64,000 bases of DNA from the NCBI RefSeq assembly GCF_003334305.1, contig NZ_QOWS01000007.1. One strand, written 5' to 3'. Made by a program: the position numbers and the translations under genes. This DNA comes from Escherichia coli (lineage in GTDB: Bacteria > Pseudomonadota > Gammaproteobacteria > Enterobacterales > Enterobacteriaceae). Below are positions 61,593 to 61,973 of this stretch, one piece after another; position 1 is the first letter of the stretch, and each line of letters starts with the position of its first letter. A model generated the notes under the pieces. The model saw only the letters and a program-made list of their open reading frames with translations. It searched no databases and had not been told where the DNA came from.

Positions 61593-61776
61593 AACAAAGC
61601 CGGGAATTACCCGGCTTTGTTATGGAATAAGGCGGTGCCTAACTCGACGTTTCGCCCGATGGTTGATATAGCTACGCTGATATCAGAAGTTGGACGGCAG
61701 GCACCTTGTTGTGCGTCATTCGAATTTTATGTAGCACGTCCCGAAGGGGCTGACATAAGTCGGTGAATGAGCCACT
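61593..61776 (-). ncRNA. glmY: GlmY small RNA
   Basis: Reverse complement reads AGTGGCTCATTCACCGACTTATGTCAGCCCCTTCGGGACGTGC... and ends with terminator AAAGCCGGGTAATTCCCGGCTTTGTTG; sigma54 promoter directly upstream. Confidence 0.8.
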
Positions 61777-61787
61777 GCTTACTATTA

Positions 61788-61803
61788 TGCAGTAACTGTG
61801 CCA
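61788..61803 (-). promoter_or_regulatory. sigma54 (-24/-12) promoter of glmY
   Basis: Minus-strand TGGCAC-agtta-CTGCA, 12-13 nt upstream of the glmY 5' end. Confidence 0.7.
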
Positions 61804-61892
61804 ATAAAGAAAATAGTTTGGTAACGTACTGATTATACGTCGCTTTGAGGGGTTTATGGCTTCTCCGTTATTTGAATGTAAATCAGCCACTG

Positions 61893-61910
61893 TGTCGCTA
61901 AAAAGAGACA
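61893..61910. promoter_or_regulatory. GlrR binding site (TGTC-N10-GACA) upstream of glmY
   Basis: tgtc gctaaaaaga gaca. Confidence 0.6.
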
Positions 61911-61955
61911 ACTTAAGATAAACTTATTAGATAATATTAAAATCAATGAGTTAAG

Positions 61956-61973
61956 TGTCGCCAGAAAGCGACA
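61956..61973. promoter_or_regulatory. GlrR binding site (TGTC-N10-GACA) upstream of glmY
   Basis: tgtc gccagaaagc gaca. Confidence 0.6.

What the first reader, a model, noticed from the sequence alone, without database searches (positions are those of the whole stretch)
61593..61973. glmY sRNA with sigma54 promoter and two TGTC-N10-GACA GlrR sites readable in the sequence
Between glrK and purL the minus strand carries the full GlmY sRNA (5' end AGTGGCTCATTCACC..., 3' terminator hairpin AAAGCCGGG-TAATTC-CCGGCTTT). It is preceded by a textbook sigma54 element TGGCAC-N5-CTGCA and by two TGTC-N10-GACA sites (61893-61910, 61956-61973). This matches the known GlrK/GlrR (QseE/QseF) control of glmY and confirms the locus is intact. 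A third, weaker GlrR site is expected but I could not place it confidently by eye.
Basis: partly seen in the sequence, partly recalled or inferred. Interest (0 to 1): 0.3.

Follow-up and report, generated by a model that had tools for sequence, protein, structure and literature searches.

The report
E. coli glmY sRNA and promoter

Summary
Window 61593-61776 (minus strand) is glmY. It matches Rfam RF00128 at 147 bits against a gathering score of 33. It is 183/184 identical to the annotated K-12 glmY (b4441) and lies between purL and glrK/qseE.

The TGGCAC-N5-CTGCA sigma54 element (61788-61803) is the only such match in the 64 kb. TGTC-N10-GACA occurs exactly three times in the window, all within 118 bp upstream of glmY. 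It is a perfect consensus match, not a weaker one.

In 45 purL-glmY-glrK loci from other Enterobacterales, the three sites keep their 32/33-bp and 63-bp spacing. A weight matrix trained only on non-Escherichia sites ranks the three window sites 1-3 of the whole window and finds no fourth site in this intergenic region.

All of this reproduces published work (Göpel 2011; Khan 2020). It is already known and of low interest.

The parts
61593..61776 (-). glmY primary transcript, 184 nt; transcription start is A at 61776
   Evidence: It aligns without gaps to K-12 ncRNA b4441 (2691157-2691340). The only difference is +54 U versus A, at window 61723. MFE fold is -64.2 kcal/mol, z = -5.5 against shuffles.
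61629..61776 (-). Part of GlmY corresponding to the 148-nt processed, active form: 5' stem-loop plus the central RapZ-binding stem-loop
   Evidence: The Rfam RF00128 match covers exactly these 148 nt. The 184-to-148 nt processing is taken from PMC4152352. A 45-species consensus fold gives 36 pairs, 11 with compensatory changes.
61593..61621 (-). glmY intrinsic terminator hairpin: 12-bp stem AACAAAGCCGGG/CCCGGCUUUGUU with loop UAAUU
   Evidence: Seen in the MFE and centroid folds. The simple terminator scanner did not list it, because the U-run lies partly inside the stem.
61788..61803 (-). Sigma54 promoter element TGGCAC-N5-CTGCA; GG at -26/-25 and GC at -14/-13 relative to 61776
   Evidence: Unique match in the window, 0.10 expected. 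Identical to K-12. Sigma54 dependence in K-12 is from PMC3045617.
61784..61789 (-). -10 hexamer CATAAT of the overlapping sigma70 promoter (-13 to -8)
   Evidence: The sequence is read directly and is identical to K-12. PMC3045617 names CATAAT as the characterised -10 overlapping the sigma54 -12 element. CATAAT is present in 23 of 45 orthologous loci. No good -35 hexamer exists, and the consensus scanner did not call this promoter.
61822..61834 (-). Proximal IHF-consensus site AATCAGTACGTTA (-58 to -46), between ABS3 and the promoter
   Evidence: Exact WATCARNNNNTTR match. Conservation in orthologs is weaker: 0-1 mismatch in 30 of 45 loci. PMC3045617 reports two IHF-like sites flanking ABS3.
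61893..61910 (-). GlrR/QseF binding site ABS3, TGTCTCTTTTTAGCGACA (-134 to -117)
   Evidence: Exact TGTC-N10-GACA. Top weight-matrix score in the whole window, 24.4 bits. An ortholog site with at most 1 mismatch sits 63±1 bp from ABS2 in 41 of 45 loci. Essential in K-12 according to PMC3045617.
61941..61953 (+). Distal IHF-consensus site AATCAATGAGTTA (-177 to -165), between ABS2 and ABS3
   Evidence: Exact WATCARNNNNTTR match. The same position carries 0-1 mismatch in 44 of 45 orthologous loci. In PMC3045617 the distal site, IHF site 1, is essential for sigma54-promoter activity. That the published site 1 is this exact 13-mer is my inference; the figure could not be read.
61956..61973 (-). 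GlrR/QseF binding site ABS2, TGTCGCTTTCTGGCGACA (-197 to -180)
   Evidence: Exact match. Weight-matrix rank 2, 21.4 bits. Perfect in 43 of 45 orthologous loci.
61989..62006 (-).
   Evidence: Exact match. Weight-matrix rank 3, 19.7 bits. Identical in K-12. An ortholog site with at most 1 mismatch sits 32-33 bp from ABS2 in 38 of the 43 loci that have enough upstream sequence. The K-12 reporter fusions span -238 to +22, which includes this site.
62012..62033 (-). purL intrinsic terminator hairpin; its T-run abuts ABS1 and marks the upstream limit of the glmY control region
   Evidence: Terminator scan. Sequence AAGCTCCCAACTCCGGGAGCTTTTTTGTGTC.
60107..61534 (-). glrK/qseE sensor kinase gene, 475 aa with a TTG start, beginning 58 nt after the glmY 3' end
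   Evidence: The start aligns with the K-12 b2556 start. tblastn gives 99.8% identity to the K-12 locus. RefSeq names the identical gene qseE in E. coli M8.
57905..59239 (-). glrR/qseF, the sigma54-dependent response regulator that binds the ABS sites
   Evidence: NCBIfam NF011695 GlrR equivalog, 982 bits against a cutoff of 763, full length 1-444.

Best explanation
Window 61593-62006 (minus strand) is the canonical Escherichia coli glmY gene with its complete upstream control region.

Transcription starts at A61776 from two perfectly overlapping promoters.
- A sigma54 promoter, TGGCAC-N5-CTGCA. Phosphorylated GlrR (QseF) activates it from three TGTC-N10-GACA sites: ABS1 at -230, ABS2 at -197 and ABS3 at -134. 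IHF-induced bending at sites flanking ABS3 assists activation.
- A weak, unregulated sigma70 promoter with -10 hexamer CATAAT.

The 184-nt transcript ends at a 12-bp terminator hairpin and is trimmed to about 148 nt. The processed GlmY mimics GlmZ and sequesters the RNase E adaptor RapZ. GlmZ then escapes cleavage and activates glmS translation, which restores GlcN6P. GlcN6P-free RapZ in turn stimulates GlrK/GlrR (QseE/QseF), closing the loop.

Shown here: sequence identity, positions, uniqueness, conservation and RNA fold. Inferred from published K-12 work on essentially identical sequence: protein binding, sigma-factor dependence, processing and RapZ sequestration.
For: - Rfam GlmY hit at 147 bits against a gathering score of 33.
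- 183/184 identity with no indel to annotated K-12 glmY. The sigma54 element, CATAAT, all three ABS and both IHF sites are identical to K-12.
- TGTC-N10-GACA occurs three times in 64 kb, all within 118 bp, with 0.85 expected for the whole window.
- The sigma54 motif is unique in the window.
- IHF-consensus sites flank ABS3, as published.
- In 45 purL-glmY-glrK loci across Enterobacterales, ABS2 is perfect in 43. ABS3 and ABS1 are kept at fixed spacings of 63±1 bp and 32-33 bp. The background rate of perfect sites is 0.035 per kb.
- A weight matrix trained only on non-Escherichia sites ranks the three window sites 1-3 of the whole window: 24.4, 21.4 and 19.7 bits, next best 15.0.
- The RNA fold has z = -5.5, and 11 of 36 consensus pairs show compensatory changes.
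- GlrR, QseG, GlnB and PurL pass their NCBIfam equivalog cutoffs. GlrK is 99.8% identical to K-12.
- The locus is present in 5426 of 5426 complete E. coli genomes.
- The mechanism comes from PMC3045617, PMC4152352 and PMC7073468.
Against: - Nothing contradicts the explanation.
- Binding, sigma-factor dependence and processing are not testable from sequence and are carried over from K-12.
- The sigma70 promoter has no recognisable -35 hexamer and was not called by the consensus scanner.
- The glmY terminator was not called by that scanner either.
- GG and GC sit at -26/-25 and -14/-13 relative to the annotated 5' end, one or two bases further upstream than the nominal -24/-12.
- The comparative loci were selected by requiring the sigma54 motif plus GCTCATTC. 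They therefore cannot show conservation of the sigma54 element itself, only of the ABS and IHF sites.
Confidence: 0.97

Rival explanations
1. glmY is not an independent unit here. It is the 5' part of a glmY-glrK-qseG-glrR operon, with substantial read-through of the glmY terminator, so the sigma54/GlrR promoter also autoregulates the two-component system.
For: - Only 58 nt separate the glmY 3' end from the glrK TTG start.
- The terminator U-run is interrupted (UUUGUUGU) and lies partly inside the stem. The scanner did not call it.
- The abstract of PMC8745638 reports a glmY-qseE-qseG-qseF operon in Proteus mirabilis.
Against: [quoted passage not shown]
- The terminator and spacer are identical to K-12.
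- The hairpin is a perfect 12-bp G+C-rich stem.
- This rival is compatible with the main explanation rather than an alternative to it.
Confidence: 0.15
2. The RNA is the paralogue GlmZ (same Rfam clan CL00011), not GlmY.
For: GlmY and GlmZ are homologous in sequence and structure. In many genera both carry sigma54 promoters with GlrR sites.
Against: - Rfam clan competition kept GlmY_tke1 at 147 bits.
- The sequence is 183/184 identical to b4441 glmY.
- The purL/glrK gene order is that of glmY in all 45 compared loci.
- According to PMC3045617, E. coli glmZ has no sigma54 promoter.
Confidence: 0.005
3. The three TGTC-N10-GACA matches are chance palindromes, or sites for a different regulator, and do not act on glmY.
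For: In 3 of 100 shuffles of the window the motif occurred three times somewhere. Hairpin-forming sequences can imitate the motif, as the hmp/glnB terminator does at 57467-57484 with 15.0 bits.
Against: - All three lie within 118 bp, immediately upstream of the only sigma54 motif in the window.
- Position and spacing are conserved across genera while the N10 spacers diverge.
- The sequence is identical to the K-12 sites, where GlrR binds three TGTC-N10-GACA motifs upstream of glmY and ABS2 and ABS3 are essential for sigma54-promoter activity.
Confidence: 0.01
4. The region encodes a small protein: the mechanical ORFs at 61672-61911(-), 79 aa, or 61536-61766(+), 76 aa.
For: Both ORFs appear in the six-frame list.
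Against: - The frame equivalent to 61672-61911(-) is open in only 3 of 41 non-Escherichia orthologous loci.
- That ORF would start inside ABS3 and run across the promoter.
- Conservation follows RNA base-pairing.
- No CDS is annotated here in K-12 or M8.
- The plus-strand ORF was not tested separately.
Confidence: 0.005

Closest known systems
E. coli K-12 MG1655 glmY (b4441; formerly sroF/tke1) with its dual sigma54/sigma70 promoter
   Same: The length is the same at 184 nt, and so are the 5' and 3' ends, the terminator, the sigma54 element and the CATAAT hexamer. All three GlrR sites (ABS1-3) and both IHF-like sites are identical, and the flanking genes purL and glrK are the same.
   Different: One base differs in the RNA: +54 U here versus A in K-12, in an unpaired internal loop of the 5' stem-loop. 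The U allele is exact in 3671 of 5426 complete E. coli genomes, so K-12 carries the minority allele. Promoter-region differences are -2 G versus C (61778), A versus G at 61977 between ABS1 and ABS2, and five substitutions at 61841-61870 between ABS3 and the proximal IHF site. An extra 18 nt (62060-62077) sits in the REP-like hairpin after purL.
glmY loci of other Enterobacterales (Citrobacter, Enterobacter, Pluralibacter, Pantoea, Erwinia, Yersinia, Morganella and others)
   Same: Gene order is purL-glmY-glrK. Three GlrR sites keep 32-33 bp and 63±1 bp spacing, a distal IHF-like site follows ABS2, and the RNA fold is conserved.
   Different: In most other genera ABS3 reads TGTT...GACA, one mismatch, while Escherichia has a perfect site. 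CATAAT is present in only 23 of 45 loci, which agrees with the published view that the overlapping sigma70 promoter is restricted to a subset of genera. The distance from the ABS block to the start site shifts by up to about 40 bp in some genera.
GlmZ (Rfam RF00083, clan CL00011)
   Same: It is a homologous sRNA with a similar 5' and central stem-loop. It is bound by RapZ, and in many genera it is also driven by sigma54 and GlrR.
   Different: GlmZ base-pairs with glmS mRNA and lies at a different locus. In E. coli it has only a sigma70 promoter. The RNA here scores as GlmY and lies at the glmY locus.

Membership tests
GlmY sRNA (Rfam RF00128) | Covariance-model score at or above the curated gathering threshold over the full model | tested here: met
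   147.1 bits against 33, model positions 1-163 of 163, E = 7.5e-34.
GlmY sRNA (Rfam RF00128) | Orthology with annotated glmY: same boundaries and the purL-glmY-glrK gene order | tested here: met
   183/184 identity and no gaps against K-12 b4441. purL lies upstream and glrK downstream.
GlmY sRNA (Rfam RF00128) | 5' stem-loop, central stem-loop and terminator hairpin, supported by covariation | tested here: met
   The MFE fold shows the three elements, z = -5.5. The 45-sequence consensus has 36 pairs, 11 with compensatory changes.
GlmY sRNA (Rfam RF00128) | Binds RapZ as a decoy and lacks the glmS base-pairing region | not testable with these tools
   Taken from PMC4152352 and PMC7073468 for K-12. 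The central stem-loop sequence is identical to K-12.
Sigma54-dependent promoter | GG and GC dinucleotides spaced as in YTGGCACG-N4-TTGCW, just upstream of the start site | tested here: met
   TGGCACAGTTACTGCA at 61788-61803. It is unique in the window with 0.10 expected. GC lies at -14/-13 relative to 61776.
Sigma54-dependent promoter | Binding sites for an enhancer-binding protein more than 100 bp upstream, with an IHF site between them and the promoter | tested here: met
   ABS1-3 lie at -230, -197 and -134. IHF-consensus sites lie at -177 and -58.
Sigma54-dependent promoter | Transcription requires rpoN and an activator ATPase | not testable with these tools
   Shown for K-12 glmY in the work summarised in PMC3045617. 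The promoter sequence is identical.
GlrR/QseF upstream activating sequence | Three TGTC-N10-GACA motifs upstream of glmY | tested here: met
   Three perfect matches, the only ones in 64 kb. They rank 1-3 with a weight matrix trained on non-Escherichia sites.
GlrR/QseF upstream activating sequence | Conserved position and spacing of the sites in orthologous loci | tested here: met
   Spacing is 32-33 bp in 38 loci and 63±1 bp in 41 loci of the 45 compared. ABS2 is perfect in 43 of 45.
GlrR/QseF upstream activating sequence | The cognate regulator genes are present and intact nearby | tested here: met
   GlrR scores 982 bits on its equivalog model (cutoff 763) and QseG scores 358 bits (cutoff 234). 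GlrK is 475 aa and 99.8% identical to K-12.
Overlapping sigma70 promoter of glmY | -10 hexamer CATAAT overlapping the sigma54 -12 element | tested here: met
   CATAAT at 61784-61789 (-13 to -8). It is named as the characterised -10 in PMC3045617.
Overlapping sigma70 promoter of glmY | A recognisable -35 hexamer at 16-18 bp spacing | tested here: inconclusive
   With a 17-bp spacer the hexamer is TTTCTT, only 2 of 6 matches to TTGACA. The consensus scanner did not call a promoter here.

The most novel reading that the evidence does not exclude
The five substitutions relative to K-12 at 61841-61870, in the spacer between ABS3 and the proximal IHF site, plus the -2 G/C change, could be lineage-specific tuning of DNA bending. 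That would alter sigma54-dependent glmY output among E. coli lineages. The alternative is neutral drift in an unconstrained spacer.
Probability: 0.05. Interest if true: 0.2.

Novelty: already known. Interest (0 to 1): 0.07.

Why it matters
This result does not advance the field. glmY, its dual promoter, the three GlrR sites and the IHF requirement were worked out experimentally in E. coli K-12 (PMC3045617), and the sequence here is essentially identical. Three things are useful for the scan:
- The locus is intact, so the GlmY/GlmZ/RapZ envelope-precursor homeostasis circuit should work in this strain.
- RefSeq/PGAP annotation of the 100%-identical strain M8 shows no feature at all in this 575-bp intergenic region. 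Unannotated sRNA genes of this kind are easily mistaken for empty or novel DNA.

Tried and rejected
- The consensus promoter/terminator scanner on 61400-62200 found the purL terminator but neither the glmY sigma70 promoter nor the glmY terminator. The -35 is poor and the U-run lies inside the stem. I treat this as a limit of the tool, not as evidence against those features.
- The genome-contig scan with TGGCAC-N5-YTGC-N(8-16)-GCTCATTC stopped at its 120-locus limit. More than half of the hits were chance matches in unrelated phyla. Only the loci that also matched glmY by blastn and carried purL and/or glrK homologues were used: 46 including the identical M8 locus L001, so 45 were counted. Because the sigma54 motif was part of the selection pattern, this set says nothing about conservation of that motif.
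- I ran Rfam on six pattern-matching loci that had no blastn hit. L101 (an uncultured Enterobacterales genome) carries GlmY. L066 (Rahnella) and the non-enterobacterial loci do not, and no GlmZ was found.
The next best non-overlapping score there is -9.1 bits, against 19.7-24.4 bits for the three real sites. None exists.
- The fourth-ranked weight-matrix hit in the window (57467-57484, 15.0 bits) lies inside the hairpin between the convergent hmp and glnB genes. I read it as a palindrome artefact.
- I tested the small-ORF reading of 61672-61911(-) and rejected it, because the frame is open in only 3 of 41 orthologs.
- I did not fetch further divergent E. coli genomes. Three Escherichia loci from the genome scan (L076, L092, L099) already show the half-sites conserved while the N10 spacers vary.

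Full report
**Checking the observation.** I read 61300-62300 on the minus strand. It shows, in order:
- the end of purL, with stop codon TAA at 62110-62112;
- a REP-like hairpin;
- the purL terminator, AAGCTCCC-AACTCC-GGGAGCTT plus a T-run, at 62012-62033;
- an A+T-rich intergenic region;
- the string AGTGGCTCATTCACC starting at 61776;
- a hairpin, AACAAAGCCGGG-TAATT-CCCGGCTTTGTT, ending at 61593;
- 58 nt further on, the TTG start of a 475-aa ORF.

Rfam finds one family in 58000-64000: RF00128 GlmY_tke1 at 61629-61776(-), 147.1 bits against a gathering score of 33, over the full model. The K-12 MG1655 record annotates ncRNA glmY (b4441) as 184 nt between glrK and purL. Aligned to the window, it corresponds to 61593-61776 with one mismatch and no gap.

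TGGCAC-N5-YTGCA has a single match in the window, at 61788-61803(-), with 0.10 expected. TGTC-N10-GACA has three matches: 61893-61910, 61956-61973 and 61989-62006. About 0.85 are expected over the whole 64 kb, and all three fall within 118 bp.

**The third site.** The site is 61989-62006, TGTCTGTAAATCACGACA on the glmY strand, at -230 to -213.

I then scanned the whole window on both strands. The three sites rank 1, 2 and 3, at 24.4, 21.4 and 19.7 bits. The next hit scores 15.0 bits and lies elsewhere in the window. Within the glmY intergenic region the next non-overlapping score is -9.1 bits. There is no additional site between ABS3 and the promoter.

In the nomenclature of Göpel et al. 2011 (PMC3045617) the distal site is ABS1. 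It is less conserved and dispensable for promoter activity, while ABS2 and ABS3 are essential. "Weaker" is therefore fair functionally but not by sequence in E. coli.

- The hexamer CATAAT at 61784-61789 (-13 to -8) overlaps the CTGCA of the sigma54 element. PMC3045617 names this as the characterised -10 of a sigma70 promoter that starts transcription at the same nucleotide. It is partly repressed by sigma54 binding and is unaffected by GlrR and IHF. I find no convincing -35; with a 17-bp spacer the hexamer is TTTCTT. The consensus scanner does not call this promoter, so the assignment rests on the literature and on identity to K-12.
- The IHF consensus used in that paper, WATCARNNNNTTR, matches exactly at 61941-61953 (plus strand; -177 to -165, between ABS2 and ABS3). 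It also matches at 61822-61834 (minus strand; -58 to -46, between ABS3 and the promoter). This fits the published statement that two IHF-like regions flank ABS3 and that the distal one is essential for the sigma54 promoter. I could not read the figure, so equating these 13-mers with the published sites is my inference.

**Comparison with relatives.** The 651 bases 61500-62150 match all 5426 complete E. coli genomes and are 100% identical to E. coli M8. The differences from K-12 are:
- +54 U versus A (61723), in an unpaired internal loop of the 5' stem-loop;
- -2 G versus C (61778);
- A versus G at 61977, between ABS1 and ABS2;
- five substitutions at 61841-61870, between ABS3 and the proximal IHF site;
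- three substitutions just after the purL stop codon;
- 18 extra bases (62060-62077) that complete a REP-like hairpin.

A 61-nt query centred on +54 is exact in 3671 of 5426 genomes, including O157:H7 and Nissle 1917. The K-12 derivative TG1 carries the other allele, so the window has the majority form.

A pattern scan of one genome per species gave 120 loci. After excluding the identical M8 locus, 45 carry a glmY homologue flanked by purL and/or glrK homologues. They come from Citrobacter, Enterobacter, Pluralibacter, Pantoea, Erwinia, Yersinia, Morganella and other genera, plus the separately fetched K-12 locus. In these loci:
- ABS2 is a perfect TGTC-N10-GACA in 43 of 45;
- a site with at most 1 mismatch lies 63±1 bp downstream in 41 of 45 (ABS3);
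- a site with at most 1 mismatch lies 32-33 bp upstream in 38 of the 43 loci with enough sequence (ABS1);
- perfect sites occur at 0.035 per kb in the rest of the same loci;
- the distal IHF position has 0-1 mismatch in 44 of 45, and the proximal position in 30 of 45;
- CATAAT is present in 23 of 45, in line with the published restriction of the sigma70 promoter to some genera.

Centre-to-centre spacings of 33 bp and 63 bp are about 3 and 6 helical turns. The three dimers would therefore sit on one face of the DNA; this is my inference. A caveat applies: the loci were selected with the sigma54 motif in the search pattern, so they cannot be used to show conservation of that motif.

**The RNA.** The 184-nt sequence folds at -64.2 kcal/mol, against -44.2 ± 3.6 for shuffles, z = -5.5. 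The fold has a 5' stem-loop, a central branched stem-loop and a 12-bp terminator hairpin. A consensus fold of 45 orthologs over the first 160 nt gives 36 pairs, 11 with compensatory double changes. The Rfam match ends at 61629, which is 148 nt from the start. That is the length given for the processed, active form (PMC4152352).

**Genes around it.** Downstream on the same strand are:
- glrK/qseE (60107-61534; TTG start as annotated in K-12; 99.8% identical);
- qseG (59229-59948 as listed; NF007997, 358 bits);
- glrR (57905-59239; NF011695, 982 bits against a cutoff of 763);
- glnB (57506-57844).

Upstream is purL, which runs off the window end.

**How it works.** The sequence evidence above establishes what the elements are. 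What they do is taken from published K-12 experiments on essentially identical sequence.
1. GlrK phosphorylates GlrR.
2. GlrR~P bound at ABS2 and ABS3, with ABS1 accessory, contacts sigma54-RNA polymerase at TGGCAC-N5-CTGCA through an IHF-induced bend and drives open-complex formation.
3. A weak sigma70 promoter gives basal transcription from the same start site (PMC3045617).
4. The 184-nt RNA is trimmed to 148 nt. This form binds RapZ through the central stem-loop, keeps RapZ from delivering GlmZ to RNase E, and so raises GlmS synthesis (PMC4152352).
5. RapZ is itself the GlcN6P sensor. When free of GlcN6P it stimulates QseE/QseF phosphorylation and hence glmY transcription. GlmY binding limits this response (PMC7073468).

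**Rivals.**
- GlmZ rather than GlmY: excluded by clan competition in Rfam, gene order and the K-12 alignment.
- Chance palindromes: excluded by clustering, uniqueness in the window and conserved spacing across genera.
- A small protein from the 79-aa ORF at 61672-61911(-): that frame is open in only 3 of 41 orthologs.
- Partial read-through into glrK (an operon): I cannot exclude this from sequence. It is reported for Proteus (PMC8745638 abstract), while K-12 is described as transcribing the two-component system independently. It would add to the main account, not replace it.

**Verdict.** The feature is already known and interest is low. What this stage adds: the exact placement of ABS1, the sigma70 -10 hexamer, the two IHF-consensus sites, a list of polymorphisms relative to K-12, and an independent cross-genus re-derivation of the site architecture.

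Noticed in passing
window 62057-62084 (minus strand), just downstream of purL: A REP-like perfect hairpin, CCGGATGCGGC-ATTTAC-GCCGCATCCGG. Eighteen of its bases (62060-62077) are absent from K-12 MG1655, which keeps only a truncated copy. This accounts for the 651 versus 633 bp length classes seen among E. coli genomes.
   Followed up: partly
window 57463-57493, between the convergent hmp and glnB genes: The fourth-best GlrR weight-matrix hit in the window (57467-57484, TGTTGCCGGATGGAAACA, 15.0 bits) lies inside a hairpin, GATGTTGCCGGATG-GAAA-CATCCGGCAAC. 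This is probably a shared terminator that imitates the palindromic motif, not a GlrR site.
   Followed up: partly
L001 (E. coli M8, NZ_CP019953.1) 3042-3616, equivalent to window 61535-62109: The RefSeq/PGAP annotation of the 100%-identical strain has no feature at all between purL and qseE. K-12 annotates glmY there. The sRNA gene is simply unannotated in most E. coli records.
   Followed up: yes
window 61841-61870: Five of the substitutions relative to K-12 cluster in a 30-bp spacer between ABS3 and the proximal IHF site, while all functional motifs are identical. A weak terminator-like hairpin on the plus strand (61847-61865) falls in the same stretch and is not conserved in K-12.
   Followed up: partly
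window 61723 (+54 of GlmY): The base is U here and A in K-12, in an unpaired internal loop. The U allele is exact in 3671 of 5426 complete E. coli genomes, so the reference strain K-12 carries the minority allele.
   Followed up: yes
whole window: Exact matches to the IHF consensus WATCARNNNNTTR number 13, against 4.06 ± 1.93 expected. None of 100 shuffles reached 13. Only the two matches at glmY were examined.
   Followed up: no
window 24606-24910(+), 32285-32394(-), 11672-11763(-): Other Rfam matches above gathering score: ryfA sRNA (318 bits), the iscRS stability element (138 bits) and sroE sRNA (115 bits).
   Followed up: no
window 61532-61534: glrK/qseE starts with TTG, as annotated in K-12. 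The six-frame ORF list extends the frame to another TTG at 61597, inside the glmY terminator, which is a mechanical artefact.
   Followed up: yes
L066 (Rahnella bruchi) 1443-1476: This locus matches the sigma54-plus-GCTCATTC search pattern, but no GlmY or GlmZ is found there by blastn or Rfam. The only Rfam hit in the locus is a cspA thermoregulator elsewhere. It is probably a chance match.
   Followed up: partly
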